A stretch of DNA of 64,000 bases from Patescibacteria group bacterium (lineage in GTDB: Bacteria > Patescibacteriota > Patescibacteriia > UBA1558 > GWA2-36-10). This document shows, piece by piece, positions 5,977-42,797 of the stretch. The DNA lies in NCBI GenBank assembly GCA_041662585.1, contig JBAZSG010000006.1, positions 4,155-68,154 of the forward strand. Direction: 5' to 3'. The notes under the pieces were generated by a model. That model worked only from the letters and a program-made list of their open reading frames with translations. It did not search any database and had not been told where the DNA came from. Each line of letters opens with the position of its first letter. The stretch's first letter is position 1. Made by a program: the position numbers and the translations under genes.

Positions 5977-5991
5977 TCGCGTAATAAACTC

Positions 5992-7855: not shown

Positions 7856-10800
7856 ATGAGTTTAATAAAAAAACTTTTTGTGTTTTCCTTGGTAATTACC
7901 ACTGTCCTATCATTTAATCCTTTTAATGTTAAGGCAGCCGGTAGTTATGGAGCAGGATCACTTCTTGCTCTACAAGGCGTACAAGGTTCAGCCGTTTATT
8001 ATATTGGTTCAGATGGAATGAAATATGTCTTCCCTGATTCAAAAACATATGCTACTTGGTATGACAATTTTAACGATGTTGTTAGAGTTGACGTAGCTGA
8101 GTTAGACATGTATCCAGACGGCGGAGCTATGACTTATCGTGCTGGTACCAAATTGGTAACTCACGAAAACACAGCCAAAATTTATGCCGTAGGTCCTGGT
8201 GGATTACTTCACTGGATTCCTACAGCAGAAATAGCTGAAGATTTATATGGAGCAAACTGGGCATCTAGAGTACTAGACGTAATTCCAGGATACTTCTCTT
8301 CAAGCTATGTTTCAGGCGCTGATTTATCTGATATGTATCCAAGTGGTACATTATTGCAAATGGGCGAAAACATGTACTATGTAGATGGTACAAGTGTAAG
8401 ACCTTTTGCTGATGCTGATGCCTTTGAAGCAAACAACTTTGCTTATGGTAACTTAATCACAGTTACTAGCGTTTCAGCTTATACATCAGGTACATCAATC
8501 ACTGGTGAAGAGACTGCCCTATCTGGCTTTATGCCAGCTGAAGGCAGTGGTCCAGTTGTCTCAGGTGGCAACTTGACAGTAGCTATTGCTAGTGGCACTC
8601 CAGCCTCTGGAATGGTTGTAGGTGGTGCAGCTCGCGTACCATTTACCAAATTAGCTTTGACTACTGGTAGTCAAGGTGTAACCATTGATACAATGGTTGT
8701 ACAAAGAGGCGGAATTGGTCAAGATGGTGCTTTTGATAGTATCGATATTTTAGATGGTACTACAATGCTTCCATATGATGCCAATTCAAAAACCTTCAAT
8801 TCAAATCACCAAGCTACATTTACCAAAGATTTGGTAATTCCAGCTAATACCACTAAGTATGTTTACTTAGCTGCTAATATGGTTTCTCAGACTACTATTG
8901 GTACTTCTTATGCTGGAGAAGCTCCAGCTCTAGGATTAGCAGCCGTTACTTTAGTTGGAAGTGGTTCAGTAGGCGGTTCATTACCAGTTTATGGTAATAC
9001 TCAAACCTTAAATGGAACCATTGCTATTGGTACCGTTGGAATCCAAAGAGGTTCTTATGGAAATGCCACTTCAACTTCAATTGAAGTTGGTAAAACTGAT
9101 TACACTTTCTTCTCATTTCAAGTAAATCCTTCTTCTGTAGAAGATGTAACTTTCAACCAAGTAGCTGTTTACCAAGAAGGTACAGCAGTATTGGGTGATG
9201 ACATCACCAACATTGAACTGTTAAAAGATGGTGTGAAGGTTGCTGATGGTGTTGTCGATGGTAAGTACGTTACTTTTAGTGGTATTAATACTGTTATTCC
9301 AAAAGGACAAACTTATCAATATGCAGTTAGAGCTGATGTTGACGGCGGTTCACTTAGAACAGTAGACTTGGGTATATATCGCACTACCGATTTATTGGTA
9401 ACTGGTAATACTTATGGTTATAACATCACTCCAAGTTATAGTGGAGCTGGTTCATCATATACTAGTTCTTCAGTTTATAACAAACCAGTATTAAGTGATA
9501 ATCAATTTACCATGTCAAATGGTACTTTGACTGTTGAAAGAGGTAATATAGTTGGTTCTGAAAACATTACCCTTGGTAATGATCAAACATTAGGATCATT
9601 CAAATTCACTGTAAAAGGCGAAGAAATTGATGTTACTGCTTTGACTTTGACAATAGCTTCTTCTGCAACCGCTACTATTGAAGATGCTTTGGCTGGTGTA
9701 AAATTAGTTGATAGCAACGGTACTACCGTAGCTGGTCCAACTGATGTTACCAACAATGCACTTACAGTTGCCTTTACTGACACATTTACTTTACCAGTTG
9801 GTGAAAGTGAATATAAAGTAGTAGGTAATATTGCTAACAATGGTGGTTGGGCAGCTAATGATACTATTTATGCTAGCATCAGTACTCCAGCAACAGCTAT
9901 TACAGCCACTGGTGTTATTACTGGCAATAGTATTACTTCTGGTACAGCCACAGCTATTAATACAAATACCCAGACAGTTAAAGCTGCTTCTTTGACCGTA
10001 ACCAAAGATACCCTACCAACTACAAGCACCGTTATCGCTGGTGCTCAAGATGTAGTATTGGGTTCTTGGACATTTGATACTACAAATTCAGGAGAAGATA
10101 TCAGAATTACATCTTTGGTATTTGCTGCTTCTTCAACAGATGCTACTAACCTAACTGTATATAATGGCGTTTATGGTAGTGGTGGAGTTGCAATGAGCCC
10201 AATTAATTCTGCTCCAACAGTTGCTGATGGTGCTTCTTCAACCTTTGCTTTTGATGAACCAATAGTTATTACCAAGAAGACAAGTAAAACTATCCAATTG
10301 GTAGGTGATATCAATAGTAGTGCTACTACTGGACAAAGTGCTCAATTTGGTTTGACCGATGTAACAGCAGCTACCAACGCTTCAGTTGTAGCTTATGGTG
10401 TAACTACTGGAAATAGAGCTACATTATCTCTTACTGCTGATAATGGTGCTACACTTACTTATTCAGCCGCTGGCGCTGTTACTGTAAGTACATACAACAA
10501 TCCATCAAATGCTATTGCTAGAGCAGGTGCTACTGGCGTTACATTTGGCAGTGTCAAGCTAGATGCTCTATATGAAAATCTAGATTTAGACCAATTGATT
10601 GTTTATGTTGCTGACGGTGCTTTGACTGGTACAGCTACTGGTAATTATGCTGATGTCAACAAAGTATACATTTATGATGGTACTACTTTGTTAGCTTCAA
10701 ATGCTATCCCATCAACTGGTTTGTATACATTCAACTTTGACAATGGTACTTTGACTGTCCCTGTAGACGGTTCAAAGACTTTGACAATCAAAGCTGACTT

Positions 10801-11623
10801 GAGTACTATCAGTCAAGTAAACGATGTACCAGGTACTCCAGCTGCCGACATTGCCTTTGGCTTTGGTGGTACAGATGGATTTAAGTTTACCGGTACTTCT
10901 TCAAATACCACAGCTACAGAGACCTACAATGGTTCTACATCTTCAGCTATGATATTGCATAAAGCATTACCAACTGTTACCGTTGCTCAAAGTAGTGCTG
11001 CTTTAGGTGCTGCTACTACAATGGCTAACGGTGCTTCAGACTTGTATGCTTTCAAAGTCACTGCTGATGCAGCAGGTAGTGAAGTATTACTATACAGAGC
11101 TACATTTGAAATCGCTACTGGTGGTGGCGCAACCGTTACAGTTACCAACTGTTATCTAAAGGATAGTGATGGTAATACTGTAGGTGCTGCTGCTACTCCA
11201 ACTGATGTTGATGGTGCTCCATCTTATGTATCATATGTATTCAACAATCCTGACATCTCAGCTGGTAATACCAAAGAAGCCTTGATGGTTGCTGCTGGTT
11301 CTAGCGAGACTTATAAGTTGAATTGTACTTTAGCTAACGCTGCTTCAGGAGATAATATAGCTGTTGCCTTAGTAGGTGACGTTGCTTCTTCTACTCTAGC
11401 TGCTAGCTTTGGCACCCCATCTGCTACTGGTCAAAACAATGCAGATGCTTGGGCCGCTGTAGACAAAGGAAACTTTGTATGGTCAGATAACTTCAAGAAC
11501 CGTGGCCTAGCCACAGACGGTGCTAATGCTACTGCCTGGGGACAATGGTACAATGGTTACTTGGTATCTGGTCTAGGTACAAGTGGTACTACTACTGCTT
11601 ATACAATTGGTTGGTCAAGCTAA
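7856..11623 (+). CDS. large secreted Thr/Ser/Ala/Gly-rich cell-surface protein (S-layer-like) with signal peptide
   Basis: 1255 aa; signal peptide (MSLIKKLFVFSLVITTVLSFNPFNVKAAG); three N-terminal ~55-aa repeats (YYIGSDGMKYVFPD.. / IYAVGPGGLLHWIP.. / MYYVDGTSVRPFAD..) then long beta-rich T/S/A/G/V/N segments with almost no Cys/His/Met. Codon usage visibly differs from neighbours (GGT/GCT/ACT-rich). Confidence 0.6.
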   Translation: MSLIKKLFVFSLVITTVLSFNPFNVKAAGSYGAGSLLALQGVQGSAVYYIGSDGMKYVFPDSKTYATWYDNFNDVVRVDVAELDMYPDGGAMTYRAGTKLVTHENTAKIYAVGPGGLLHWIPTAEIAEDLYGANWASRVLDVIPGYFSSSYVSGADLSDMYPSGTLLQMGENMYYVDGTSVRPFADADAFEANNFAYGNLITVTSVSAYTSGTSITGEETALSGFMPAEGSGPVVSGGNLTVAIASGTPASGMVVGGAARVPFTKLALTTGSQGVTIDTMVVQRGGIGQDGAFDSIDILDGTTMLPYDANSKTFNSNHQATFTKDLVIPANTTKYVYLAANMVSQTTIGTSYAGEAPALGLAAVTLVGSGSVGGSLPVYGNTQTLNGTIAIGTVGIQRGSYGNATSTSIEVGKTDYTFFSFQVNPSSVEDVTFNQVAVYQEGTAVLGDDITNIELLKDGVKVADGVVDGKYVTFSGINTVIPKGQTYQYAVRADVDGGSLRTVDLGIYRTTDLLVTGNTYGYNITPSYSGAGSSYTSSSVYNKPVLSDNQFTMSNGTLTVERGNIVGSENITLGNDQTLGSFKFTVKGEEIDVTALTLTIASSATATIEDALAGVKLVDSNGTTVAGPTDVTNNALTVAFTDTFTLPVGESEYKVVGNIANNGGWAANDTIYASISTPATAITATGVITGNSITSGTATAINTNTQTVKAASLTVTKDTLPTTSTVIAGAQDVVLGSWTFDTTNSGEDIRITSLVFAASSTDATNLTVYNGVYGSGGVAMSPINSAPTVADGASSTFAFDEPIVITKKTSKTIQLVGDINSSATTGQSAQFGLTDVTAATNASVVAYGVTTGNRATLSLTADNGATLTYSAAGAVTVSTYNNPSNAIARAGATGVTFGSVKLDALYENLDLDQLIVYVADGALTGTATGNYADVNKVYIYDGTTLLASNAIPSTGLYTFNFDNGTLTVPVDGSKTLTIKADLSTISQVNDVPGTPAADIAFGFGGTDGFKFTGTSSNTTATETYNGSTSSAMILHKALPTVTVAQSSAALGAATTMANGASDLYAFKVTADAAGSEVLLYRATFEIATGGGATVTVTNCYLKDSDGNTVGAAATPTDVDGAPSYVSYVFNNPDISAGNTKEALMVAAGSSETYKLNCTLANAASGDNIAVALVGDVASSTLAASFGTPSATGQNNADAWAAVDKGNFVWSDNFKNRGLATDGANATAWGQWYNGYLVSGLGTSGTTTAYTIGWSS

Positions 11624-11670
11624 ATAATTCTTATTTAGTGAGATTAATTAATTCAAAGATATACAGAAAC

Positions 11671-11699
11671 ACACCTCTCCCCATTTTGGGGAGGGGTGT
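11671..11699 (+). terminator. GC-rich hairpin after the S-layer-like gene (ACACCTCTCCCC-ATTTT-GGGGAGGGGTGT)
   Basis: 12-bp stem (one G-U) with 5-nt loop, 48 bp after the stop; no clean T-run on the + strand. Confidence 0.45.
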
Positions 11700-11762
11700 T
11701 GTCAAAAACAAGTAAATATAATAGAATTAGCTAGTAATTTTATAGATTAAATTTTTAATACA

Positions 11763-12449
11763 ATGAAAAAAACATACCAAAATTTGATTATTGGAGGCTT
11801 AATATTGTTGGTTATAGCTTTTATATTTGCTTGGACAGCATATTTTAAACAAAACTCAACAAAAATTATAATCCCTGATATAAGCAAAATTTATACTATA
11901 GAAGATTTTTCAGACTCTAGTTTAGACGAAGAGAGTTTACAAAACCTTATCAAGCGTTTAAATAATGATCAAAAATATTTAAGAGAAGGCACCTATGAAA
12001 GCGAAGTACAACGTTATGATATTTGGGTGGATATTGCCAATTTAAAATTTGCTTTAGAAGATTATGATAGTGCAGTAGAGATATGGGAATACGCTATTAC
12101 TTTAAATAATTCAAATCCATTGGCCTTCGCCAATTTGGCCAATTATTATAAATCATTTGCCAATGATTATGAAAAAGCAGCTTATTATTATGATCAAGCT
12201 ATTCAAAAAGATAACGTTGGTTATTATTTTGATTATGAAGCCTATGCAGAATTATATATAAGGTATTTGCCAGAAGATCCACATAGAGTAGAAATTATTA
12301 TGCTTGATGGTGTAGCTAAAGCAGTTGGGAATACTAAATTAAATTTTTATTTGTTTCTTTATAATTATTGGAATGAAAAAGGAGATTCAAATAAGACAGC
12401 ACAATATAAAGATGAAATTTTAAAAATAGACGCTAATTATCAATTTTAA
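11763..12449 (+). CDS. membrane-anchored TPR-repeat protein
   Basis: 228 aa; N-terminal TM (LIIGGLILLVIAFIFAWTAYF); TPR-like repeats (WEYAITLNNSNPLAFANLANYY.., AAYYYDQAIQKD..); first gene of a three-gene operon. Confidence 0.5.
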   Translation: MKKTYQNLIIGGLILLVIAFIFAWTAYFKQNSTKIIIPDISKIYTIEDFSDSSLDEESLQNLIKRLNNDQKYLREGTYESEVQRYDIWVDIANLKFALEDYDSAVEIWEYAITLNNSNPLAFANLANYYKSFANDYEKAAYYYDQAIQKDNVGYYFDYEAYAELYIRYLPEDPHRVEIIMLDGVAKAVGNTKLNFYLFLYNYWNEKGDSNKTAQYKDEILKIDANYQF

Positions 12450-12451
12450 TT

Positions 12452-14737
12452 ATGGAAGTGTTAAAAAAAGTTTTGAATAAAGCAATTTGGTTGTTGATTA
12501 TAGGCGCTTTAGTGGTTCCACTTTATGTTGATAGTGATTTTTTCTTTCCTTATATTTTTAGCAAGACATTAGCCTTTAGAATAATAATAGAAATATTATT
12601 ATTGCTATGGTTAATTTATATATTTATAAAGAAAAATAAAATTAATATTGATTGGTTGACAATCACATTTTTTGTGATGTTGGTTTTTATGTATGTTTCG
12701 TCCATTTTTGGGCACAATTTTTCTTTGAGCTTTTGGAGTACAATAGAAAGAGGAGAGGGATTGTTGCTTTGGACGCATTTATTTTTTTATTTTTTTATAT
12801 TACACAATTTTATTCAAGAAAAAAAACAATGGTTGTTGTTGTTTGATGTATTCTTTATTATTGCGCAAGTAGTAGCTGTGGTTGGACTATTGCAGTATGC
12901 TGGAGTAGACTTTATCAATCACTCAGGAGTAGCTGAAGAGCGCATAGCTTCGACTATAGGCAATGCAGCGTATCTAGCTGGTTATTTATTGTTTGCTTTT
13001 TTTATTGGTTTATATTTGATGTTTAAACGTCAAAATATTTGGTTGAGCTTGTATTATTCTATAGCGATTTTGATAGATATTTTTATCGTAATTCAGACTG
13101 GCACTAGGGGAGCATTTTTGGCCTTTATTATTAGTATTTTATTATTTGTTGTATATAATATTTTTAAACTGGCCAATAAAAAAATTAAGTATTATGTATT
13201 ATTTTTAGGTATTTTATTTATTATTTTTTTGGCATTAGTTTTTACTAATAAAGATAGTAGTTTTATACAAAACAACTTACCTTTACGTAGAATAGTTAGC
13301 ATTTCTTTAGAAGAACGTACAGCTCAGACTCGTTTTATGGCCTGGGAGTCTGCTTGGCAAGGATTTAAAGACAGGTCTATTTTGGGACACGGGCAAGAGC
13401 ATTACGCAGTGGTTTTTAATAAATATTTTAATCCAGAAATATATTCTCATGTTGGTTCCAGAATTTGGTTTGATAGAGCACACAATATTTTCTTGGATCA
13501 TTTGGTGACAGGTGGATTAATAGGCTTTATTCTGTATAGTATTTTAATTATTGGACCTATCTGGCTTGTTTTAAAAAAGATATTTGTCAAAAAATCTCAT
13601 GACAATCAGGAAAACGATAATATTTGGGAAAATTTTGCTACACAAATGTTATTTTTGGCAATATTTTCTTTTATATTCCAAGGGCTTTTAGTTTTTGAAG
13701 CACTAGTCACTTATTTGCCTTTATTTTTGATAATCGCTTTTGTGATAAAAGAATATACTGAACCAAAGTTTATAATAGAAAACAGCAAAAAAGTTTTAAT
13801 ATCTTTGATGATATATGCTATTGCTTTTATACCCATAATGTATATTGTGAATATCAAAGAAGCCAAGGCAAATTTGGAGGTGATTGATGCCCTACAATTG
13901 CAATCCATAGATTATAATCAATCAATTGTGGGTTATGAAAAAGTATTGAATTATAATAGTTCTGGTACCAATGAATATCTTCGTCGAATGACAGAATATG
14001 TAGATGGTTTGATAATAAATAGAAATGTCAGTCCTTATGAAGCTACCCAATTTGTAGATATAGTAGATAAAGCATTAGAAAAAAGACTTCAGGAGTTTCC
14101 AGAAGATGTAGCCACTTATTTGTTATTTATGAGACACTACAACTACACTTATGTACTTGATCCAGATAGATTGTACAAAGTTGAAGAATTGGGCAAAAAA
14201 GCTTTGGAATATAGTCCAACTAGACCACAGATATATTATGAATTGGGTTATGCCGATTTGTATTTATATCAGAGAATGATAGAAGATGCTAATACTGATG
14301 AAGCTAAAAAATATCAGGTAGGAACAGTGGACAATTTTCAAAAAGCTATCGATTTAAATAATGATGTGATGGAGTCTTATATCAATATGATTATGGTATT
14401 ATTGACTAGTGATCAGTCAGATAAAGTGCAATCTTATATAGATATTATGGAGAATATGGGCATAGATTATAAAAAAGAGTCATCATTATCTAGAATGGCA
14501 AACTCAGCTTTACATGCTGAAGACTATAAATGGGCTGCTTATTTTAGTGAGTTATTGATAAAAGTAGTGCCAGAAAATCCTGACTATTATATAAATACTG
14601 CCTTAGCTCTAGCATATTTAGGCGATTATGATAGAGCTATTGAAATAGCTGAAGAGATAAAGAATTTTGGTGGGCAATATATTATTCAATCAGAAGAATT
14701 TATTAAAGATATAAAATCAGGAAAATTAACTAAATAA
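12452..14737 (+). CDS. Wzy_C (O-antigen ligase/polymerase-like) polytopic membrane domain fused to a C-terminal TPR domain; candidate O-oligosaccharyltransferase
   Basis: 761 aa; ~450-aa multi-TM N-terminal part with the Wzy_C-like motif 'IQTGTRGAFLAFIISILLF' and a large extracytoplasmic loop containing conserved His; ~300-aa soluble C-terminal TPR region. Confidence 0.6.
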   Translation: MEVLKKVLNKAIWLLIIGALVVPLYVDSDFFFPYIFSKTLAFRIIIEILLLLWLIYIFIKKNKINIDWLTITFFVMLVFMYVSSIFGHNFSLSFWSTIERGEGLLLWTHLFFYFFILHNFIQEKKQWLLLFDVFFIIAQVVAVVGLLQYAGVDFINHSGVAEERIASTIGNAAYLAGYLLFAFFIGLYLMFKRQNIWLSLYYSIAILIDIFIVIQTGTRGAFLAFIISILLFVVYNIFKLANKKIKYYVLFLGILFIIFLALVFTNKDSSFIQNNLPLRRIVSISLEERTAQTRFMAWESAWQGFKDRSILGHGQEHYAVVFNKYFNPEIYSHVGSRIWFDRAHNIFLDHLVTGGLIGFILYSILIIGPIWLVLKKIFVKKSHDNQENDNIWENFATQMLFLAIFSFIFQGLLVFEALVTYLPLFLIIAFVIKEYTEPKFIIENSKKVLISLMIYAIAFIPIMYIVNIKEAKANLEVIDALQLQSIDYNQSIVGYEKVLNYNSSGTNEYLRRMTEYVDGLIINRNVSPYEATQFVDIVDKALEKRLQEFPEDVATYLLFMRHYNYTYVLDPDRLYKVEELGKKALEYSPTRPQIYYELGYADLYLYQRMIEDANTDEAKKYQVGTVDNFQKAIDLNNDVMESYINMIMVLLTSDQSDKVQSYIDIMENMGIDYKKESSLSRMANSALHAEDYKWAAYFSELLIKVVPENPDYYINTALALAYLGDYDRAIEIAEEIKNFGGQYIIQSEEFIKDIKSGKLTK

Positions 14738-17176
14738 ATGTTTTTATTATCAAATAAAGCAGAATCTTATATTGAGAAACTAATAAAAATTATTACACCA
14801 AGTATATTTTTTATTCCTTTAATATTAAATTCAAATTTTTATTTTCCTTTTGTTACACCACGGACATTTTTATTTAGACTGATAGTGACTATTATATTTG
14901 CTTTGTATTTAGTTTTGTTTGTGTTTAGTAAAGAAAAATATAAATCTTTTGGAACTAAAATACTCTTGGCGTATATAAGTTTTGCTTTTATACTTACTTT
15001 ATCTAGTCTTTTTGGTGGTGATTTTTTGTATAGTTTTTGGGAAAATGCAGAGAGAATGGAAGGTTTATTGGGTTTATATTATTTGATAGCCTTTTTTGTT
15101 GTTTTAGTAGGAGTTTATCATCGCAAAAAATCATGGCAATTTTTGCTTTATGTGACTTCTTTTGCTTCTTTTATTATAGCTTATATTGCTCTTTCTCAGG
15201 CTTTGGGCATAGATTTATTACTGGCGTCCTCTGGTGGAGCTAGAGTATCAGCTACTTTGGGCAATCCTACTTATCTGGCTGCTTATGCACTTATTCATAT
15301 GTTTTTGGCAGCTTATCTATTGCTCAAAAATACCAAAAGACGACTTTCTTTTGAATTGATAGGGTTTTATGTCTTGGATTTAATATTAATAATTTTAGAA
15401 ATATTTTCTCGAAATAAAGGAGGAGTAGGTATAATTACTATTATTTTTAGAAATATATATTTGGTGCTTTTATTTTTTGTGCCTCAGCTATTGGTACATT
15501 TAAATTTTTTCTTCCGTCATAGTAAACAAAAATTAGCTCAAATTAGTCGAAAAGCTTATTTTGTGATTTTAATAATATTAAATTTCATTGCTTTATTTAA
15601 TACTCAAACTAGGGGAGCATTGGTGGGTATTTTTGTAGCTTTGTTGACCATAGCTATATTTTTGTTGTTTAGTAAGTATGTACATAAAAAATTAAAATAT
15701 TCAGTAGTCGCTTTATTATTATTTTTTATAATTTTAGTTTCTTCTATATTTGCATTTAAGCAAAGTAGTGTAGTGCAAAACAACAATACCTTGAGAAGAG
15801 TAGCTAGTATTTCTTTGTCTGATGCTACTACCGAGACTAGGTTACTCACTTGGCAAATAAGTATACAGGGTTTTAAAGAAAAACCAATACTTGGTTGGGG
15901 AGAGGATAAATTTTATGTAGTATTTAATAAATATTTTCCAACTGCCATTTTTGAAGACTTTGGTTCACGGGTTTGGTTTGATAGACCACACAATGTATTT
16001 ATCCAACAATTGATACATGGTGGTTTGTTGGGATTATTGGCTTATTTGGCAATATTTTGGTTTGCTTTCAAAAATTTATTTAAGCATTACCAAAAAACCA
16101 AAGACGCAAAGACTATCAGTATTTTTGGTGGACTTATCATCGCCTATATGGTGCAAAACTTTTTTGTTTTTGATAGTCTCAATACCTATATTTTGGTAAT
16201 ATTGATTTTGGCTATTACAGTATTTTTGGGAAATGATAAAAAACCGATAGATACCAAGCAATCAGTGCCTAGTGACAATAAACTTTGGGTAGCTACTGGA
16301 TTGTTTTTATTCATTTTGATTAGCGGATATTATTTAAATATTCCAGCTGCTAAAGCCAACAAAGATTTTGTGGCTATTTATCAGGCTTTGAGAGCTGAGC
16401 CTGCAAATTTACCATTCAACGAAGACCTTAATCAAGAATTAATTGATATAATAAATAGTAATTATTTTGGTAAATTTGAGTTTAGACAAGTATATTCAGA
16501 ATACGCTTATTCTCTTTTACAAGTTCCCGAAGTACCAAATTACAGAAAAGGTAAAACCATGGAACTAGCTGAGGTAGAGCTCTTAAATAGTATAGACGAG
16601 CAGCCAGACAATGTCAGACATCATAGTTTTTTGGCTAATCTTTATTTGGCTGGAGCTAGACTAGATCCAAGTTATGCTCAAAAAAATATCAGATTGGTAG
16701 AAGATAAAGCTTTGATACTCAGCCCTACTAGGACACAACTTTATTATACACTGGGTAGTGCTTATATGACTTTACAAGATAGTGATAAGGCTATAGCCAA
16801 TTTTATCAAAGCCAAAGAATTGTCACCACATGTTTTTGAATCATATCAAAATTTATTTTCAGCTTATTTGAGTACAGATAGAGTAGAAGAAGCCAAACAA
16901 GTCTTGCTTGAAATAGAGGATAATACTCAGCCTTCAGCAGCAAACTATAGTAATTTGGGTCAAATACTCAATTATTTTGGCATGACAGAAGAAGCTGTTA
17001 ATTATATAGAAACAGCTACCTTAACATATCCTCAAGAGAGCAATCTTTTAATTCAGTTGCTAGTTTACTATGATAAGCTAGATGATCAAGTAAAATTGAA
17101 CGAAACATTAGCAAAATTAAAAATACTTGATCCAGCTACAGCTAGTCAAATTGAGATAAATTTAAAAAGTTTATAA
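14738..17176 (+). CDS. second Wzy_C-TPR fusion protein (paralog of 12452..14737)
   Basis: 812 aa; same architecture ('NTQTRGALVGIFVALLTIAIFLL', 'VWFDRPHNVFIQQL' compare 'IWFDRAHNIFLDHL' in the paralog); the start abuts the previous stop. Confidence 0.6.
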   Translation: MFLLSNKAESYIEKLIKIITPSIFFIPLILNSNFYFPFVTPRTFLFRLIVTIIFALYLVLFVFSKEKYKSFGTKILLAYISFAFILTLSSLFGGDFLYSFWENAERMEGLLGLYYLIAFFVVLVGVYHRKKSWQFLLYVTSFASFIIAYIALSQALGIDLLLASSGGARVSATLGNPTYLAAYALIHMFLAAYLLLKNTKRRLSFELIGFYVLDLILIILEIFSRNKGGVGIITIIFRNIYLVLLFFVPQLLVHLNFFFRHSKQKLAQISRKAYFVILIILNFIALFNTQTRGALVGIFVALLTIAIFLLFSKYVHKKLKYSVVALLLFFIILVSSIFAFKQSSVVQNNNTLRRVASISLSDATTETRLLTWQISIQGFKEKPILGWGEDKFYVVFNKYFPTAIFEDFGSRVWFDRPHNVFIQQLIHGGLLGLLAYLAIFWFAFKNLFKHYQKTKDAKTISIFGGLIIAYMVQNFFVFDSLNTYILVILILAITVFLGNDKKPIDTKQSVPSDNKLWVATGLFLFILISGYYLNIPAAKANKDFVAIYQALRAEPANLPFNEDLNQELIDIINSNYFGKFEFRQVYSEYAYSLLQVPEVPNYRKGKTMELAEVELLNSIDEQPDNVRHHSFLANLYLAGARLDPSYAQKNIRLVEDKALILSPTRTQLYYTLGSAYMTLQDSDKAIANFIKAKELSPHVFESYQNLFSAYLSTDRVEEAKQVLLEIEDNTQPSAANYSNLGQILNYFGMTEEAVNYIETATLTYPQESNLLIQLLVYYDKLDDQVKLNETLAKLKILDPATASQIEINLKSL

Positions 17177-17190
17177 AAGACAATAAAAAT

Positions 17191-17228
17191 AACCTCGCAG
17201 GTTTTTAAACCTGCGAGGTTATTTTTTA
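17191..17228. terminator. bidirectional rho-independent terminator (AACCTCGCAGGTTT-TT-AAACCTGCGAGGTT plus T-runs on both strands)
   Basis: 14-bp perfect stem between convergent genes 14738..17176(+) and 17237..17689(-); T/A runs on both sides. Confidence 0.75.
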
Positions 17229-17236: not shown

Positions 17237-17689
17237 CTAAGCGGACATTATTAATTTTGATTCTTTTTTGGATATTATTTTTTTATCCCCCAAAATATTC
17301 ACTAGAGTATTTACTTTATTATCGTTTTTATGAATAGTACCCATTATATCTACTCTAAGGTCACTTAATTTGTCATCTAAATAGTCTTTTGTGACCATTG
17401 TAGATTTAATATTTACTATTTGTGACTCCATACCATCCATCCTATTATCCATTTTATCGAAGCGTTGATCTATTTTCTCAAAGCGTTGATCTATTTTCTC
17501 AAAGCGTTGATCTATTTTGCTGAATTGGCCTTCCGTATAATTGGCAAAACTGTTAATTGATTTAGCTAATTCGTCAATATTATTAGTGTTTTGGTCTACT
17601 TTTTGTTCTAAACCTCCTACTTTTTTGTCCAAGCCTTGGATTGCTTGGAGTATTTTTTGATTTGATACTTCGCTTTTCTTCTTTTGCAT
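17237..17689 (-). CDS. hypothetical coiled-coil protein with heptad tandem repeats (FEKIDQR x3)
   Basis: 150 aa, Q/K/D/N-rich, predicted coiled coil; contains a perfect 3x21-bp DNA tandem repeat. Confidence 0.45.
   Translation of the reverse strand: MQKKKSEVSNQKILQAIQGLDKKVGGLEQKVDQNTNNIDELAKSINSFANYTEGQFSKIDQRFEKIDQRFEKIDQRFDKMDNRMDGMESQIVNIKSTMVTKDYLDDKLSDLRVDIMGTIHKNDNKVNTLVNILGDKKIISKKESKLIMSA
17459..17520. repeat. 3 x 21-bp perfect tandem repeat (AAGCGTTGATCTATTTTCTCA) inside CDS 17237..17689
   Basis: Read directly from the sequence at 17461-17520; in frame (7 aa per unit). Confidence 0.85.
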
Positions 17690-17763: not shown

Positions 17764-18966
17764 TTAAAATAATCTAAGATATAGCTCTTTGGTTTTAGCT
17801 AGACTTTGCTTGAGATCAAAATTGCTTACAATGTTTTGATAATTTTTTTCTAGAATATTTGAATTTATTTTATCAATTTCTTTGATAGCCGTGGCTAGAG
17901 ATAGAGGATTGGCTGGAGAGACCAATAGACCAGTTTCTTTATCTTTTATTATTTCAGGTATTCCACCTACTTTGGTGGCTATGACAGGTATTTTGGCGAG
18001 CCCTGCTTCTAAGAGAACATAAGGCAGACCTTCTTTGACAGAAGGGAGTATAAAAGCAGTAAAGGCCTTGAGGTATTTATGGGCAGTATCTTTGGCACCG
18101 AGCAATTTAAAATATTTATCTAGATTATTATCCTTGATTTGTTGTTTTATATTTTCCAGCTCTGGGCCATCTCCTATAAGTACCCATTGATAGTTTTCCA
18201 ATAGAGGAGACTGTTCATCTTGTAAGATTTTGATAGCTTCGACTAGATAGCTATAGCCTTTGGTTTTATAAAAGCTAGCAATAGTACCAAAATATTTTTT
18301 ATTTTTATCTAATCCCAATTTTTCTAGAGCAGTAAAGCGATCATAAAAATTTGTATTATCTATATCAATACCATTGTGTATAGTGATTATTTTATTTTCT
18401 GGAGCTAGTTTATTATCAATAGCACTTTGTCTATCGGCTTCAGATACTGTGATCACAGCATGATTGATGCTAGAAGATATTTTTTCAGAGAATGTATACA
18501 ATTTTTTTTTAAACTTTGATAGTGGCTCATTGAAGACAAAACCATGAGCTGTATAGAGTATTCTAAGTTTTGTATTTGTGATGTTGGCAGAATACATACG
18601 AGCAGCCAAGGCTCCCAACAACCCAACTTTGGAACTATTGAGATGTACCAAATCATATTTTCCAGCATTGTATATTTTAAGAATTTCCATTGTAGCTAGA
18701 TAATCTTTAGAAAAGTCTATATTTCTGATTAGGTATGGTATAGGGAGACTTTTTATGTTTAGCTGTTTTAATTCTTCCAAAAATTTTGAGTCAGTATTTT
18801 TTTCTTCGCCATAGGCCACATGGATTTCATTGTCTTCGCCAAAATATTTGGCCAAAGCTAAGACATACTTTTGAGCTCCACCAAATTTTGTTTGAGTGAT
18901 GATATATAGTATTTTTTTGCCTTTAAGCTCTTTATTTGTATTATCTTTATGGCTAATATTAGTCAT
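17764..18966 (-). CDS. glycosyltransferase family 1 (GT4-type, retaining)
   Basis: 400 aa; C-terminal GT1 signature 'EGLPYVLLEAGLAKIPVIATKVGGIPEII'. Confidence 0.8.
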   Translation of the reverse strand: MTNISHKDNTNKELKGKKILYIITQTKFGGAQKYVLALAKYFGEDNEIHVAYGEEKNTDSKFLEELKQLNIKSLPIPYLIRNIDFSKDYLATMEILKIYNAGKYDLVHLNSSKVGLLGALAARMYSANITNTKLRILYTAHGFVFNEPLSKFKKKLYTFSEKISSSINHAVITVSEADRQSAIDNKLAPENKIITIHNGIDIDNTNFYDRFTALEKLGLDKNKKYFGTIASFYKTKGYSYLVEAIKILQDEQSPLLENYQWVLIGDGPELENIKQQIKDNNLDKYFKLLGAKDTAHKYLKAFTAFILPSVKEGLPYVLLEAGLAKIPVIATKVGGIPEIIKDKETGLLVSPANPLSLATAIKEIDKINSNILEKNYQNIVSNFDLKQSLAKTKELYLRLF

Positions 18967-19054
18967 TTCTTTAATTGATTTATTTAATAAATACTGGTAT
19001 AATTTTATAGTATTTACAAAGCTAAAGCAAGCTTTTTATTAGAAAATAGCCAAA

Positions 19055-20167
19055 ATGAGGATAGTAATTGCAACAGGTATATTTATTCCCGAGCTTGGTG
19101 GTCCAGCTACTTACGCCGCTAAGATAGCGGATAGTTTTTTAGCTTTGGGTCATCAAGTCAAGATTGTTAGTTATTCTGATCAGAGTAGTTATGATTTGGA
19201 CAAAAATTTAGCTTATCCAATTTTTAGAGTAAAAAGATCTAATAAATTATTAAATTATCTAAATTATTTTAAAGTCTTGCGACAGGTCGCCAAAGATGCT
19301 GATGTTATATATTCTTTTGATCATTTTAGTGCTGGCATTCCAACGGCTTTGTTGGCTAGTATTTATCAGAAACGTTTTTATATTCGGGTCGGTGGCGATT
19401 TTATTTGGGAAAGATATTTGGATTTAAATAATTCGGCGGTTACTCTAAAAGATTTTTATAAAAACAATTTGCATCTTACGGCCGAGGGAAAAAGGTTTAA
19501 AGTTATTTCCTGGGTGTTTAAAAAATCCACCGGTATTATATTTACTACCAAATTTCAATTGGAAATATTCCAAAAGTATTATAATTTATTATCAGATAAA
19601 CTATTTGTAGTTAATAATCCTATTAGTAAGGGGGCTAAGATATCCAGAGACATTGTTAATAAAGAAATCATCATGACCGGACGCTTTATTCACAAAAATA
19701 ATATTTTAAATTTAATCAAAGCTTTCAAAAATATTTCTGACAAAAGCTATAAATTGATTTTGATAGGAGAAGGAGCTATCCAAAACAAAATGGAAAATTT
19801 AATAAAAGAATTAGCTATAAGTGACCGGGTTTTTATTGAACCAAAGCTTTCCAGAGATGATTTAGCCAAGAGAATGTCTGGAGCTTATCTAGCTATTTGG
19901 CCATCACTGACGGATATTAGCCCCAATTCTATGCTAGAAGCCTTGAGTATCAATGTACCAGTTATCAGCTCTATAGAGATTGGTTTTGATTGGCTCAAAG
20001 ACAAGATAAAAACTTTTGATCCTAGAGAGGTTTCAGAAATTACAGAGGCTATTGATAGCTTATTGGACAAAGACGCTTATTTGGCTTATCAAGAAAAAAT
20101 AAACAAAATTAGCTATGAGTACACTTATGCTCAAGCGGCTAAAGATACTATAGATATTTTAAAATAA
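19055..20167 (+). CDS. glycosyltransferase family 1
   Basis: 370 aa; GT-B fold hallmarks ('MTGRFIHKNNILNLIKAF', 'PNSMLEALSINVPVISS'). Confidence 0.65.
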   Translation: MRIVIATGIFIPELGGPATYAAKIADSFLALGHQVKIVSYSDQSSYDLDKNLAYPIFRVKRSNKLLNYLNYFKVLRQVAKDADVIYSFDHFSAGIPTALLASIYQKRFYIRVGGDFIWERYLDLNNSAVTLKDFYKNNLHLTAEGKRFKVISWVFKKSTGIIFTTKFQLEIFQKYYNLLSDKLFVVNNPISKGAKISRDIVNKEIIMTGRFIHKNNILNLIKAFKNISDKSYKLILIGEGAIQNKMENLIKELAISDRVFIEPKLSRDDLAKRMSGAYLAIWPSLTDISPNSMLEALSINVPVISSIEIGFDWLKDKIKTFDPREVSEITEAIDSLLDKDAYLAYQEKINKISYEYTYAQAAKDTIDILK

Positions 20168-21324
20168 TGAAAGAATTAAAAGACACTTCAATATTGATGA
20201 TTAGTATGGACATTGGATTATTGGAAGCCAGTGGCTCTGGTGATGTGATAGCTAGACATCAGCAATATGCCAAGCATTTGAAAAAATTGGATATTATTGT
20301 TTTTGGTAAAAGTAATAAAACAGAAAATAAATTGGCAGTCAATTTTCAAGTTTATGGAGTAGGTAAAAATATTTTTTCTTTTTTTAAAGCCAAAAGTTTA
20401 GCTACCAAGCTTTACCAAAAAAATAACTATGATTTGATTGATACTCAAGATCCACATTGGACCGGTCTATTGGGACTAACACTCAAGAAAAAATTTAAGA
20501 CAAAACTGGAGATTCATTTTCATGGAGATTTTTGGCAAAATAATATTTGGTTAAATGAGTCTTGGAAAAACAAGTTTTACAATTTTTTGCAAAGTAAAAT
20601 AGTCCCACAAGTAGATGCTATCAGAGTGGTCAATCCCAGAATAAAAGAAAAATTGATAACTGCTAATATTTATGCCAAAAAGATAAAAGTAATAAATACT
20701 CCAGTTAACGAAGAAGAATTTATTAGAGCTGTAGCAGAAAAAGATATACTAGCCATTAAAAATCAATATAATAAAAAAATTATTTTTTTTGCTGGACGTT
20801 TGGTAGCAGCCAAAAATCTTATATTTCTTTTGGAAGTAGTCAAATTGTTGTATAGAAAAAGAAATGATTTTGTATTACTAGTAGCTGGCAAAGGTGATGA
20901 ACAAGAAAATTTAGTAAATTTTGTAAATAATAACAACTTGGAAGAAGTGGTTTTTTTACTTGGTCCCCAAAAACACCAAGATTTAGTGACTTATTTTAAG
21001 GCTGCTTATATTCATGTTTTGCTCTCTACCAACGAAAGTTTTGGCAAGACTATTATTGAAGCAGGTATGACAGGTTTAGCAACGCTCGCTTCTAAAACAC
21101 TTGGTGCTTCTTTTATTATTAAAGATAATAGCACTGGCTGGCTGGTTGATATAAATGATTTAGATAATACAGTCACAAAACTAAACAATTTGCTTGATAG
21201 TCCAGACGAAGTAATACAAGTAGGTAATAGAGCCAAACAAGACTTTGTAGAACATCATGGTCAAACTAAAACATTTCAAAAAGTAAATGACTTTTGGCAA
21301 GAAATAATAAATGATCAATTATAA
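20167..21324 (+). CDS. glycosyltransferase family 1
   Basis: 385 aa; 'ESFGKTIIEAGMTGLATLASKTLGASFII' GT1 E-x7-E-like motif. Confidence 0.75.
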   Translation: MKELKDTSILMISMDIGLLEASGSGDVIARHQQYAKHLKKLDIIVFGKSNKTENKLAVNFQVYGVGKNIFSFFKAKSLATKLYQKNNYDLIDTQDPHWTGLLGLTLKKKFKTKLEIHFHGDFWQNNIWLNESWKNKFYNFLQSKIVPQVDAIRVVNPRIKEKLITANIYAKKIKVINTPVNEEEFIRAVAEKDILAIKNQYNKKIIFFAGRLVAAKNLIFLLEVVKLLYRKRNDFVLLVAGKGDEQENLVNFVNNNNLEEVVFLLGPQKHQDLVTYFKAAYIHVLLSTNESFGKTIIEAGMTGLATLASKTLGASFIIKDNSTGWLVDINDLDNTVTKLNNLLDSPDEVIQVGNRAKQDFVEHHGQTKTFQKVNDFWQEIINDQL

Positions 21325-21326
21325 GT

Positions 21327-40301: not shown

Positions 40302-40303
40302 AT

Positions 40304-42263: not shown

Positions 42264-42267
42264 AAAT

Positions 42268-42795: not shown

Positions 42796-42797
42796 AT

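What the first reader, a model, noticed from the sequence alone, without database searches (positions are those of the whole stretch)
12452..17176. Tandem paralogous Wzy_C-TPR fusion proteins (761 and 812 aa) following a small TPR protein
Both proteins have a ~450-aa multi-TM domain with the O-antigen-ligase-like motif T-R-G-A-(F/L). Both have a large extracytoplasmic loop with a conserved His (IWFDRAHNIF / VWFDRPHNVF). A ~300-aa C-terminal TPR domain follows, which would sit on the extracytoplasmic side if the topology follows WaaL/PglL.

Two divergent copies in tandem suggest two acceptor or glycan specificities, for example S-layer protein versus pilin, or a transferase plus a polymerase. 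The membrane-anchored TPR protein encoded just upstream (11763..12449) could be a partner or chaperone.
Basis: partly seen in the sequence, partly recalled or inferred. Interest (0 to 1): 0.75.

Follow-up and report, generated by a model that had tools for sequence, protein, structure and literature searches.

The report
Patescibacterial surface-protein O-glycosylation ligase paralogs
Two neighbouring genes encode membrane enzymes of the O-antigen-ligase / protein O-glycosyltransferase type with an outward-facing TPR domain; they sit in a conserved Patescibacteria locus next to a large secreted surface protein that they most likely glycosylate, which is a known kind of system (as in Gram-positive S-layer glycosylation loci) seen here in a little-studied phylum.

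Summary
In detail: 11763..12449 (membrane-anchored TPR protein), 12452..14737 (A, 761 aa) and 14738..17176 (B, 812 aa) form one tightly packed operon. A and B are full-length paralogs (29% identity) with Wzy_C above Pfam threshold and a ~280-295-aa C-terminal TPR domain.

The family is large, nearly all hits seen are Patescibacteria, and it is already annotated "O-antigen ligase family protein". A-type orthologs are almost always found in the module ECF sigma - DUF5667 - ~1,200-aa acidic Thr/Ala/Gly-rich secreted protein - small TPR - A. B is a distinct, accessory ortholog group; some genomes carry one copy, some three.

Best reading: a surface (S-layer-like) protein O-glycosylation locus, analogous to Firmicute slg clusters (WsaA/WsaB, WsfB). 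It is a new member of a known kind, of moderate interest. The acceptor and the division of labour between A and B remain inferred.

The parts
5395..5976 (+). ECF-type sigma factor; conserved first gene of the module
   Evidence: Pfam Sigma70_r2 and Sigma70_r4_2. Found at the same position in L001, L003, L005, L009, L011, L012, L014, L021, L029, L031, L044, L070 and L085.
5992..7428 (+). DUF5667 single-pass membrane protein with anti-sigma-like architecture
   Evidence: Pfam DUF5667 40.3 bits. One TM helix at res 71-89. Always follows the sigma gene in related loci.
7856..11623 (+). 1,255-aa secreted, acidic, Thr/Ala/Gly/Ser/Val-rich surface protein ('Big'); candidate S-layer-like protein and candidate glycan acceptor
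   Evidence: Sec-type signal peptide ending VKA|AG. The mature protein has pI 4.2, T 13.4%, A 12.1%, G 11.2% and K 2.9% (versus 11% in neighbours), with 2 Cys. There is no Pfam or PDB sequence hit. 177 homologs, all ~1,150-1,370 aa (one 705-aa exception); those carrying a name are Patescibacteria or unclassified bacteria, all 'hypothetical'. The N-terminal ~230 aa are about 75% conserved while the rest is ~30%. In some homologs this N-domain is replaced by PG_binding_1. The model of res 28-640 (pLDDT 90) shows an alpha/beta N-domain followed by tandem beta-sandwiches.
11677..11693 (.). Short GC-rich hairpin after the surface-protein gene (possible partial terminator), followed by a promoter-like site at 11699..11727
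   Evidence: Consensus scan only; sequence read. Weak evidence.
11763..12449 (+). Small membrane-anchored TPR protein (228 aa; N-in, TPR ectodomain out); WsaA-like partner
   Evidence: One TM helix at res 8-26, 2 K/R before it, acidic 202-aa tail with pI 4.5. The profile of 26 orthologs is TPR. hhalign to the TPR region of the Wzy_C-TPR family gives 98% probability, E 7e-14. Conserved immediately upstream of A-type genes.
12452..14737 (+). Paralog A: Wzy_C/WaaL-fold lipid-linked-glycan transferase (13 TM) fused to an extracytoplasmic TPR domain; core, conserved member of the module
13247..13486 (+). A, extracytoplasmic catalytic loop (res 266-345), with R294 and WFDRAHN (D341, R342, H344)
   Evidence: The most conserved region between A and B, at 52% identity. 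Invariant columns. R294 aligns to WaaL R265. H344 aligns to WaaL H313 and to H349 of 9rmk. The ligase motif H[NSQ]X9GXX[GTY] starts at 344.
13850..14734 (+). A, stalk helix plus TPR domain (res 467-761)
   Evidence: TM13 is a continuous helix 445-483 leading into 14 helices at 488-755. TPR profile hits. Acidic, pI 4.6.
14738..17176 (+). Paralog B: the same architecture with 15 TM helices; accessory member with its own ortholog group
   Evidence: Pfam Wzy_C 73.4 bits, TPR_8 42.7 bits. 15 TM helices, N-in/C-out. Orthologs at 35-57% identity and ~750-850 aa. Sits downstream of A in L043, L085 and L086, and between Big and the small TPR gene (upstream of A) in L021 and L031. It is absent from the closest relative L001.
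15332..15556 (+). B-specific insertion (res 199-273) adding two TM helices between the equivalents of A's TM6 and TM7
   Evidence: Global alignment and hydropathy. An even number of helices leaves the topology unchanged. The shift of the TRGA motif (to ~279-318) or of the WFD-HN motif (to ~403-448) in P0101, L021c, L031c and L043c shows the insertion is shared.
15755..15994 (+). B, catalytic loop (res 340-419) with R368, D415, R416, H418, N419
   Evidence: Residue mapping. The ligase motif starts at 418.
16343..17173 (+). B, TPR domain (res 536-812)
   Evidence: TPR_8, TPR_1 and TPR_19 above threshold. Acidic, pI 4.7.
17185..17226 (.). Strong bidirectional intrinsic terminator between the convergent B gene and the 150-aa coiled-coil gene
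   Evidence: 19-bp stem with 7 GC pairs, A-run upstream and T-run downstream.
17764..22364 (.). Cluster of four GT1-family (GT-B) glycosyltransferase genes; the first is on the minus strand and is conserved next to the ligase genes
   Evidence: Pfam Glycos_transf_1 / Glyco_transf_4. The 'GT1_a(-)' gene follows the ligase genes, directly or within a few kb, in most module-bearing loci.
29614..30870 (-). Wzx-type flippase (Polysacc_synt)
   Evidence: Pfam 72.2 bits. Eight or more TM helices.
33199..34560 (-). Bac_transf phosphoglycosyl transferase (WbaP/PglC type), the likely initiator on undecaprenyl phosphate
   Evidence: Pfam Bac_transf 224 bits.

Best explanation
The region is the transfer end of a cell-surface protein O-glycosylation locus of a Patescibacteria (CPR) bacterium.

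Glycan supply (inferred from annotations). A glycan is built on undecaprenyl phosphate in the cytoplasm by the neighbouring phosphoglycosyl transferase and GT1/GT2 enzymes. It is decorated by AsnB-type amidotransferases, methyltransferases and an acetyltransferase, then flipped outward by Wzx.

Transfer step. Paralog A is a 13-TM enzyme with the WaaL/PglL fold. It binds the Und-PP-glycan through the conserved arginines (R219, R294, R342). It uses H344, part of the ligase motif H[NSQ]X9GXX[GTY], and an acidic residue (E416) to transfer the glycan en bloc to a hydroxyl acceptor on the outer face of the membrane.

Acceptor. The most likely acceptor is the ~1,250-aa secreted, acidic, Thr/Ser-rich, wall-anchored protein encoded just upstream. 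It is a candidate S-layer or surface-coat protein.

TPR domains. The ~295-aa TPR domain is carried outside by the extra 13th helix and is rigidly packed on the membrane domain. Most likely it acts as the protein-binding platform that recruits the acceptor, the free membrane-anchored TPR protein (a WsaA-like partner), or both.

Paralog B. B has the same chemistry-competent site, two extra TM helices and a divergent TPR. It is an accessory enzyme of the same type with a different glycan or acceptor-site specificity.

Shown here: fold, motifs, topology prediction, synteny and paralogy. Inferred: the identity of the acceptor, the role of the TPR, and the division of labour between A and B.
For: Fold and catalytic site:
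- Wzy_C is above the Pfam threshold in both proteins.
- The AF2 model of A has pLDDT 95.
- The membrane-only profile hits WaaL 7tpg (E 3e-12) and the PglL-like oligosaccharyltransferase 9rmk (E 7e-12). The aligned residues are R219/R191, R294/R265 and H344/H313/H349.
- The published ligase motif and residues (bioRxiv 10.1101/2022.10.31.514599; PMC12800693) are present in A, in B, and in 97/100 and 72/74 relatives.

Topology:
- 13 (A) or 15 (B) TM helices with K/R-rich even-numbered loops.
- The TPR lies on the same side as the His loop, as in PglS, which has 13 TM helices and a periplasmic C-terminal domain (PMC12800693).

Context:
- The gene order sigma - DUF5667 - Big - small TPR - A recurs in all 15 loci whose A-orthologs are at least 33% identical and that have enough upstream flank. 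It recurs in 22 of 84 loci overall.
- It is kept even where the GT cluster is not adjacent, as in L085.

The large protein:
- Its composition is S-layer-like, and its conserved N-domain is swapped for PG_binding_1 in some homologs.
- CPR cells show S-layers and no outer membrane by cryo-TEM (bioRxiv 10.1101/2020.05.14.094862).

Precedents:
- Firmicute slg loci place the S-layer gene next to a small TPR protein (WsaA) and a Wzy_C O-OTase (WsaB). WsfB has a C-terminal TPR, and wsfA is an Asn-synthase homologue (PMC2943079).
- TfpW has a PhoA-verified periplasmic TPR.
- A WaaL that also glycosylates a large adhesin is reported.
Against: - No experiment shows that the large protein is glycosylated, or even that it is an S-layer protein. 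Its fold search gave only generic Ig-like arrays with TM-scores of 0.22 or less.
- The membrane domain is equally similar to WaaL (a lipid acceptor) and to PglL (a protein acceptor), so the acceptor class is not decided by sequence.
- A Wzx flippase is present, but no separate Wzy polymerase or Wzz was found in the window. One of the paralogs could therefore be the polymerase.
- Most of the more distant family members (below 32% identity) are not next to any large surface protein. The family as a whole is not tied to this acceptor.
- Gene linkage to the large protein could equally reflect synthesis of the wall polymer that anchors it.
- Topology is predicted, not measured. Model coordinates could not be inspected for the TPR-to-active-site geometry.
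Confidence: 0.5

Rival explanations
1. A (and B) are polymerases or ligases of a cell-wall glycopolymer, such as a secondary cell-wall polymer or a teichuronic-acid-like polymer. They act as some Wzy_C proteins of monoderm bacteria do. They elongate Und-PP-linked repeat units or hand them to a lipid or wall acceptor. The TPR domains act as an extracytoplasmic polysaccharide-handling scaffold, as in BcsC, PelB and AlgK. The large protein is linked because its N-terminal domain binds that polymer, not because it is glycosylated.
For: - Wzx is present without a stand-alone Wzy or Wzz in the window.
- The membrane profile is as close to the lipid-acceptor ligase WaaL as to PglL.
- The large protein's N-terminal domain behaves as a swappable wall anchor; it is replaced by PG_binding_1 in some homologs.
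- Many distant family members lie beside epimerase, Wzx and GT genes with no surface-protein gene nearby.
- The small-TPR profile also hits the cellulose synthase subunit BcsC TPR region.
- That some Wzy_C proteins of monoderms act as polymerases is from my own knowledge.
Against: - The full ligase/OTase signature, including the His motif, is kept in about 97% of members. From my own knowledge it is not a hallmark of characterised Wzy polymerases.
- In L085 the Big - TPR - A - B block stays together without the GT cluster.
- Fused TPR domains in membrane glycosyltransferases with known acceptors are protein-directed: TfpW, WsfB and PglL.
Confidence: 0.25
2. Division of labour. A is the O-oligosaccharyltransferase. 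B (and the third 'C-type' copy in some genomes) is the Wzy-type repeat-unit polymerase for the Wzx-flipped glycan. The shared TPR domains and the free TPR protein hold the enzymes together as one extracytoplasmic complex.
For: - Wzx is present and no other polymerase candidate was found.
- B and the other extra copies are accessory, variable in position and heterogeneous, as expected for glycan-specific enzymes.
- All TPR modules are homologous.
Against: - B retains every ligase residue and the His motif, as A does.
- The closest relative (L001, where A is 75% identical) has the same GT-rich locus with only one copy. If its glycan is polymerised, polymerisation does not need B.
Confidence: 0.15
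3. A and B are general, PglL-like O-oligosaccharyltransferases that modify many secreted proteins. These include the type IV pilins encoded about 30 kb downstream. Linkage to the large protein is incidental.
For: - The PglL-like structure 9rmk aligns over the longest stretch of the profile, positions 132-439.
- The window carries a full type IV pilus cluster with four pilin-like genes.
- pglL is unlinked to pilE in Neisseria (bioRxiv 10.1101/2020.04.19.049825).
Against: - The Big - TPR - A order is conserved across Doudna-, Buchanan-, Portnoy- and Komeilibacteria and related lineages.
- Pilin-like ORFs lie within 10 kb of a family member in only 6 of 84 loci and are never adjacent.
Confidence: 0.1

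Closest known systems
S-layer glycosylation (slg) loci of Firmicutes: Geobacillus stearothermophilus WsaA/WsaB next to sgsE, and Paenibacillus alvei WsfB next to spaA (PMC2943079)
   Same: - A surface-protein gene lies directly next to the glycan locus.
- The predicted O-oligosaccharyltransferase has a Wzy_C domain.
- There is a C-terminal TPR in the transferase (WsfB) and/or a separate small TPR protein encoded immediately upstream (WsaA).
- An Asn-synthase homologue (wsfA), GTs, methyltransferases and an initiating phosphoglycosyl transferase are present.
   Different: - Here the fused TPR and the free TPR protein occur together, and the free one is membrane-anchored.
- One to three paralogous transferases occur per locus.
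- The TPR domain is long (~295 aa).
- The surface protein has no SLH or other known S-layer domains.
- An ECF sigma / anti-sigma-like pair is part of the conserved module.
- The host is a Patescibacteria bacterium.
- No direct sequence comparison with WsaB or WsfB could be made with the tools.
PglL / PglS / TfpO(PilO) O-oligosaccharyltransferases of Proteobacteria (PDB 9rmk; PMC12800693)
   Same: - Wzy_C domain.
- 13 TM helices with an extracytoplasmic C-terminal domain.
- Arginines, a catalytic His and an acidic residue at aligned positions. H344 aligns with H349 of 9rmk, and E416 aligns within two alignment positions of E404.
   Different: - Identity is very low, so there is only a profile-level match.
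- The C-terminal domain is a 7-repeat TPR rather than the ~110-aa domain of PglS.
- The host is monoderm-like and has no periplasm.
- The genes are linked to one large surface protein rather than to pilin or to nothing.
WaaL O-antigen ligase (Cupriavidus metallidurans, PDB 7tpg/7tpj)
   Same: - The Und-PP-binding arginines and the His motif H[NSQ]X9GXX[GTY] are the same.
   Different: - WaaL has 12 TM helices with both termini cytoplasmic (from my own knowledge) and no TPR.
- Its acceptor is lipid A-core. CPR cells imaged by cryo-TEM lack an outer membrane.
- No LPS genes were seen in the window.
TfpW (Pseudomonas aeruginosa Pa5196) and eukaryotic TMTC-type enzymes: membrane glycosyltransferases with a lumenal/periplasmic C-terminal TPR
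   Same: The design is the same: a polytopic membrane transferase followed by an extracytoplasmic TPR domain thought to engage the protein acceptor. The periplasmic location of the TfpW TPR was verified by PhoA fusions.
   Different: - TfpW is an ArnT/Emb-like GT-C enzyme with a DDX motif that uses single-sugar donors. It has a different fold class from the WaaL-like domain here.
- tfpW lies directly downstream of pilA.
- The TMTC comparison rests on my own knowledge only.

Membership tests
Wzy_C / O-antigen ligase superfamily (Pfam PF04932; WaaL-PglL fold) | Significant match to the Wzy_C model | tested here: met
   A scores 68.8 bits and B 73.4 bits against a gathering score of 31.7.
Wzy_C / O-antigen ligase superfamily (Pfam PF04932; WaaL-PglL fold) | WaaL-like polytopic fold with a large extracytoplasmic loop before the last TM helices | tested here: met
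   [not shown]
Wzy_C / O-antigen ligase superfamily (Pfam PF04932; WaaL-PglL fold) | [quoted passage not shown] | tested here: met
   A has R219, R294 and H344-N345...G355..G358. B has R292, R368 and H418. These align to WaaL R191, R265 and H313. The motif definition is from bioRxiv 10.1101/2022.10.31.514599.
Protein O-oligosaccharyltransferase (PglL/PilO/WsaB/WsfB type) | An extra TM helix placing a C-terminal domain outside the membrane (13 TM helices as in PglS) | tested here: met
   A has 13 helices, B has 15, and loop charges follow the positive-inside rule. This is prediction only. The PglS description is from PMC12800693.
Protein O-oligosaccharyltransferase (PglL/PilO/WsaB/WsfB type) | Genetic linkage to the acceptor protein (as tfpO-pilA and wsaB-sgsE) | tested here: met
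   The Big - small TPR - A order holds in all 15 well-flanked loci with A-orthologs of at least 33% identity, and in 22 of 84 loci overall. It also holds in L085 and L086. This was met for A-type genes only. B-type genes were found in this module wherever their context was examined.
Protein O-oligosaccharyltransferase (PglL/PilO/WsaB/WsfB type) | Demonstrated en bloc transfer of Und-PP-glycan to Ser/Thr/Tyr of a protein | not testable with these tools
   This needs glycoproteomics or reconstitution.
WaaL (LPS O-antigen ligase proper) | The acceptor is lipid A-core in an organism that makes LPS | tested here: inconclusive
   No lipid A or core genes appear among the window's annotated ORFs. CPR cells lack an outer membrane by cryo-TEM. 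Only 64 kb of the genome was seen, so absence of LPS is not proven.
Wzy O-antigen/repeat-unit polymerase | Works with Wzx and a Wzz/PCP chain-length regulator | tested here: inconclusive
   Wzx is present at 29614..30870. No Wzz/PCP domain was found in any ORF of the locus. NCBIfam 'oligosaccharide repeat unit polymerase' TIGR04370 scored only 17.7 bits against a cut-off of 40. Polymerase activity itself cannot be tested here.
IctB family putative bicarbonate transporter (TIGR00947) | Score above the equivalog cut-off | tested here: not met
   A scored 39.1 bits against a cut-off of 366.4.
S-layer protein (for the 1,255-aa neighbour) | Known S-layer or wall-anchoring domains (SLH, CWB2 and others), or a demonstrated 2-D lattice | tested here: not met
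   There was no Pfam hit at E <= 0.1 and no PDB sequence hit. The fold search gave only generic Ig-like arrays. Only indirect features fit: composition, a signal peptide, and an N-domain swappable with PG_binding_1. Lattice formation is not testable here.

The most novel reading that the evidence does not exclude
The ~1,250-aa 'hypothetical' protein is the so-far unidentified S-layer (surface-coat) protein of a broad Patescibacteria clade. The conserved block ECF sigma / anti-sigma - coat protein - membrane TPR protein - one to three Wzy_C-TPR transferases would then be a dedicated, envelope-stress-regulated coat assembly and glycosylation machine. In it the paralogous transferases, held together through homologous extracytoplasmic TPR modules, install different glycans or modify different sites on the same coat protein. 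This would give the first molecular handle on the CPR cell surface that mediates episymbiotic attachment.
Probability: 0.3. Interest if true: 0.6.

Novelty: new member of a known kind. Interest (0 to 1): 0.4.

Why it matters
Patescibacteria (CPR) are abundant, mostly uncultivated episymbionts, and their cell surface mediates host attachment. Cryo-TEM shows an S-layer, but I found no paper in the searchable library that names its protein or its glycosylation machinery.

This locus offers concrete, testable candidates. One is a conserved ~1,250-aa wall-anchored coat protein. The others are its probable O-glycosylation enzymes.

The enzymes themselves are compact. They combine a WaaL/PglL-fold transferase with a built-in protein-binding TPR domain. 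That could interest bioconjugate engineering, where PglL and PglS are used.

The enzyme architecture and the locus logic are already known from Gram-positive S-layer glycosylation systems. The family is also already annotated as 'O-antigen ligase family protein'. The finding therefore extends a known theme rather than revealing a new one.

Tried and rejected
- A single-sequence phmmer search of the A membrane domain against PDB found nothing. A full-length profile was swamped by TPR hits. Only the membrane-only profile A3 recovered WaaL and the PglL-like 9rmk.
- IctB/bicarbonate-transporter membership was rejected: 39 bits against a cut-off of 366.
- A pilin-specific transferase (TfpO/TfpW-like) was rejected on synteny. 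A class-III signal-peptide scan found pilin-like ORFs within 10 kb in 6 of 84 loci, never adjacent, and none in the loci with tandem copies that were scanned (L003/L004, L018, L021, L029, L031, L043, L059).
- Tandem duplication is not a universal feature. In the 80 GTDB loci only about 6 have a second copy within 10 kb. The B-directed search then showed that B is a real ortholog group co-located with A in a subclade.
- The identity of the large protein remains open. Pfam, PDB sequence search and Foldseek gave no specific family.
- The literature search for Patescibacteria O-antigen ligase or S-layer glycosylation returned nothing relevant.
- Model coordinates are not exposed, so the distance and orientation of the TPR relative to the active site could not be measured.
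- The promoter scan is barely above shuffled expectation (74 sites against 55.7 +/- 7.8) and was not used as evidence.
- Not run: the search of protein representatives, because it returns no taxonomy or context.


Full report
**1. The observation**

Pfam Wzy_C is well above its gathering score in both large proteins. A scores 68.8 bits over res 205-362 and B scores 73.4 bits over res 278-437, against a cut-off of 31.7. A and B align end to end at 29% identity, E 4e-79.

The quoted motifs TRGA(F/L) and WFDR(A/P)HN are present. The C-terminal ~280-295 residues are TPR. B passes the TPR_8 and TPR_1 thresholds. A family profile hits consensus TPR proteins and the O-GlcNAc transferase TPR domain at E 1e-36 or better.

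The small upstream protein has a single N-terminal TM helix. Its single-sequence TPR scores are sub-threshold. A profile of 26 orthologs is unambiguously TPR. That profile also matches the TPR region of the Wzy_C-TPR family itself: hhalign 98% probability, E 7e-14.

The three genes are separated by 2 bp and 0 bp. A 19-bp-stem bidirectional terminator follows them at 17185..17226. They form one operon.

**2. What the proteins are**

An alignment of 100 relatives gave a very confident AlphaFold model of A, with pLDDT 95 and pTM 0.92. The model has:
- thirteen membrane helices;
- an 80-residue loop (266-345) between helices 9 and 10;
- a 13th helix (445-483) that continues as a stalk into fourteen TPR helices (488-755).

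A profile of the membrane domain alone (74 sequences) hits exactly two solved proteins. One is WaaL (E 3e-12). The other is a 610-aa 'Oligosaccharyltransferase', 9rmk (E 7e-12), whose aligned histidine is residue 349, as in PglL. The alignments equate:
- A R219 with WaaL R191;
- A R294 with WaaL R265;
- A H344 with WaaL H313 and 9rmk H349;
- A E416 with 9rmk E404, within two alignment positions of it.

These residues are invariant or nearly so across the family. All are retained in B as R292, R368, H418 and D479.

The published ligase motif H[NSQ]X9GXX[GTY] is critical together with R215, R288 and H338 of E. coli WaaL (bioRxiv 10.1101/2022.10.31.514599). It is present in A at 344, in B at 418, and in 97/100 and 72/74 relatives. 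Both paralogs therefore look catalytically competent as ligase/oligosaccharyltransferase-type enzymes.

Between A and B the extracytoplasmic catalytic loop is the best conserved region at 52% identity. The TM helices are 25-37% identical and the TPR domain 28%. B carries a 75-residue insertion (res 199-273) that adds two TM helices.

**3. Topology**

A hydropathy scan of B finds 15 helices. The loops alternate K/R-rich (inside) and K/R-poor (outside). This places the TRGA arginine, the long His loop and the C-terminal tail outside.

The scan found 11 helices in A. The model and the homology to B give 13, with the same parity. The TPR tails and the ectodomain of the small TPR protein are acidic, with pI 4.5-4.7.

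This matches PglS, which is described as having 13 TM helices and a periplasmic C-terminal domain forming a cleft over the active site (PMC12800693). It also matches TfpW, whose C-terminal TPR domain was shown to be periplasmic by PhoA fusions (bioRxiv 10.1101/2020.04.19.049825). The high pTM suggests a fixed orientation of the TPR relative to the membrane domain. I could not inspect the coordinates.

**4. Context in the window**

The operon sits in a glycan locus:
- an MraY/WecA-type GT4 (1061..2146);
- five GT1 genes and one GT2 gene;
- two AsnB-type amidotransferases;
- several methyltransferases and a hexapeptide acyltransferase;
- a Wzx flippase (29614..30870, minus strand);
- UDP-glucose dehydrogenase and an epimerase;
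- a Bac_transf phosphoglycosyl transferase (33199..34560, minus strand).

No Wzz/PCP and no other Wzy-like polytopic protein was found.

Immediately upstream are an ECF sigma factor, a single-pass DUF5667 protein with an anti-sigma-like layout, and a 1,255-aa secreted protein. That protein has pI 4.2, 13% Thr, 12% Ala, 11% Gly, 2.9% Lys (against 11% in neighbouring proteins) and two cysteines. It has no Pfam or PDB sequence match.

Further downstream lie a Che-like module and a type IV pilus cluster with four pilin-like genes.

**5. Relatives**

The family is large. There are at least 951 proteins with E < 1e-5 to A and 391 with E < 1e-20 to B.

Named hits are Patescibacteria: Komeili-, Doudna-, Buchanan-, Portnoy-, Kuenen-, Falkow-, Harrison- and Nealsonbacteria, among others. 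Nearly all hits combine Wzy_C with TPR, and many are already called 'O-antigen ligase family protein'.

A has a clear ortholog group at 35-75% identity. In every locus with an A-ortholog of at least 33% identity and enough upstream sequence (15 of 15), the gene order is (sigma - DUF5667 -) large protein - small TPR - A. Downstream, directly or within a few kb, a minus-strand GT1 and more GTs usually follow. The large protein is present in 22 of 84 loci overall. In L085 this block is intact although the GT cluster is not within 10 kb. This ties A to the large protein rather than merely to the sugar genes.

More distant relatives (below 32% identity) lie beside epimerase, Wzx or GT genes without such a protein.

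B is also a coherent ortholog group of about 60 proteins at 35% identity or more, sharing the two-helix insertion. It is accessory:
- absent from the closest relative L001, where A is 75% identical;
- downstream of A in the window, L043 and L085;
- upstream of the small TPR gene in L021 and L031.

L003 and L029 carry an extra copy of yet another type, without the insertion. L086 has three copies, in the order C-type, TPR, A, B.

**6. The large protein**

Its 177 homologs are all 'hypothetical' and nearly all 1,150-1,370 aa long (one 705-aa exception); those with a source name are Patescibacteria or unclassified bacteria. The N-terminal ~230 residues are about 75% identical between the window and L003, while the rest is about 30%.

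In several homologs the N-terminal domain is replaced by a PG_binding_1 peptidoglycan-binding domain, and the alignment to the window protein starts only at residue 249. The N-domain therefore behaves as a swappable wall anchor under a variable exposed part.

A model of residues 28-640 (pLDDT 90) shows an alpha/beta N-domain followed by tandem beta-sandwiches. The fold search gives only generic resemblance to Ig-like arrays in integrin legs, MSCRAMM adhesins, Srr1 and Gram-positive pilins, with TM-scores of 0.22 or less.

CPR cells have an S-layer and no outer membrane by cryo-TEM (bioRxiv 10.1101/2020.05.14.094862 and 10.1101/2022.04.20.488981). In the searchable literature I found no assignment of the protein.

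**7. Interpretation**

The best-supported reading is a surface-protein O-glycosylation locus. A lipid-linked glycan is made, flipped by Wzx and transferred outside the membrane by A to the adjacent coat protein. The TPR domain and the free TPR protein act as protein-binding modules. B is an accessory transferase of different specificity.

The closest described systems are the S-layer glycosylation (slg) clusters of Firmicutes (PMC2943079):
- the S-layer gene abuts the cluster;
- the O-oligosaccharyltransferases WsaB and WsfB carry Wzy_C;
- WsfB (and PglL) carry a C-terminal TPR;
- WsaB, which lacks one, is preceded by the small TPR protein WsaA;
- an Asn-synthase homologue (wsfA) is part of the cluster.

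A WaaL that also glycosylates a large adhesin has been reported.

What is shown here is fold, catalytic signature, predicted topology, paralogy and conserved synteny. The acceptor, the role of the TPR and the A/B division of labour are inferred.

The main rival is that these enzymes polymerise or ligate a wall glycopolymer that anchors the coat protein. Two facts keep it alive: the membrane domain is equally similar to WaaL, and no separate Wzy exists alongside Wzx.

A transferase-plus-polymerase split between A and B is possible. It is weakened because B keeps the full ligase signature and the closest relative manages with A alone.

A pilin-directed role has no synteny support.

**8. Novelty and score**

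The architecture (Wzy_C plus an outward TPR, with a small TPR partner, next to a surface-protein gene) is already described, and the family is abundant and annotated. What appears new:
- its occurrence as a conserved module in Patescibacteria;
- the specific ~1,250-aa candidate coat protein with a swappable wall anchor;
- the ECF sigma / anti-sigma-like pair;
- the presence of one to three paralogous transferases.

I rate it a new member of a known kind, with interest 0.4.

Noticed in passing
window 5395..7428; also L001, L003, L005, L085 and other loci: An ECF sigma factor and a single-pass DUF5667 protein (anti-sigma-like: ~70 aa inside, one TM helix, DUF5667 outside) are conserved directly upstream of the large surface-protein gene across many Patescibacteria. 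This suggests the coat protein or glycosylation operon is under envelope-stress-type control.
   Followed up: partly
window 7856..8560 (N-terminal ~230 aa of the 1,255-aa protein); homologs P0221, P0229, P0231, P0236-P0240, P0232: The conserved N-terminal domain has no Pfam match. In some homologs a PG_binding_1 domain replaces it; in P0232 a dockerin domain is present at residues ~320-374. It may be an undescribed cell-wall-binding module.
   Followed up: partly
window 14738..17176; protein P0241: One public gene call for B (JGI, 570 aa, 100% identical) starts at an internal Met and would remove the first eight TM helices. Orthologs of 800-820 aa align over 99% of the 812-aa ORF, so the long model is the right one.
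   Followed up: yes
window 17237..17689 (minus strand); L005 15858..16253; L086 12465..12914: A 150-aa coiled-coil protein with tandem 7-residue repeats (QRFEKID x3) has no signal peptide or TM helix. It is conserved at the same position, between the ligase genes and the minus-strand GT1, in some relatives. Its function is unknown.
   Followed up: no
L086 5018..12463; L003 7827..12295: Some genomes carry three Wzy_C-TPR paralogs in the same locus (L086: C-type, small TPR, A, B). The extra copy in L003 has WFDSSHN instead of WFDRxHN, so it has lost one otherwise near-invariant arginine.
   Followed up: partly
L085 12539..22457: In this relative the Big - TPR - A - B block is followed not by glycosyltransferases but by secreted fn3/phosphatase-like proteins and a very large RHS/YD-repeat SpvB-type toxin-like protein (>2,300 aa) with a VanY/M15 peptidase domain.
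   Followed up: no
window 39159..52331: A Che-like module (MCP, CheW, CheA, CheY) lies directly upstream of a type IV pilus cluster (PilB, PilC, PilM). There are four pilin-like genes. Two are large pilins carrying a Fib_succ_major domain (45774..46862) and a LamG domain (47802..49067).
   Followed up: partly
window 1061..2146, 33199..34560, 22982..24829 and 35798..37663: The locus has two different initiating transferases (MraY/WecA-type GT4 and Bac_transf) and two AsnB-type amidotransferase paralogs, plus at least eight methyltransferase-domain genes. This hints at two glycans or a heavily modified one, which would fit two transferases.
   Followed up: no
window 3351..4076: A 241-aa ORF with about 7 predicted TM helices and no Pfam match. 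An ORF of about 240 aa occupies the same position upstream of the HtrA-like protease in L001.
   Followed up: no
window 8001..12000, and the whole window: GC content rises to about 39% over the large surface-protein gene against about 29-30% around it. This fits its Gly/Ala/Thr-rich composition. Cumulative GC skew rises monotonically and nearly all genes are on the + strand, so the window lies on one replichore.
   Followed up: no
L005, L012, L016, L018 and many others (record titles): Many GTDB record titles for these loci read 'uncultured Gammaproteobacteria' or 'Candidatus Saccharibacteria', although the gene content and synteny match Patescibacteria/Parcubacteria relatives. These look like placeholder or wrong taxonomic labels.
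   Followed up: no
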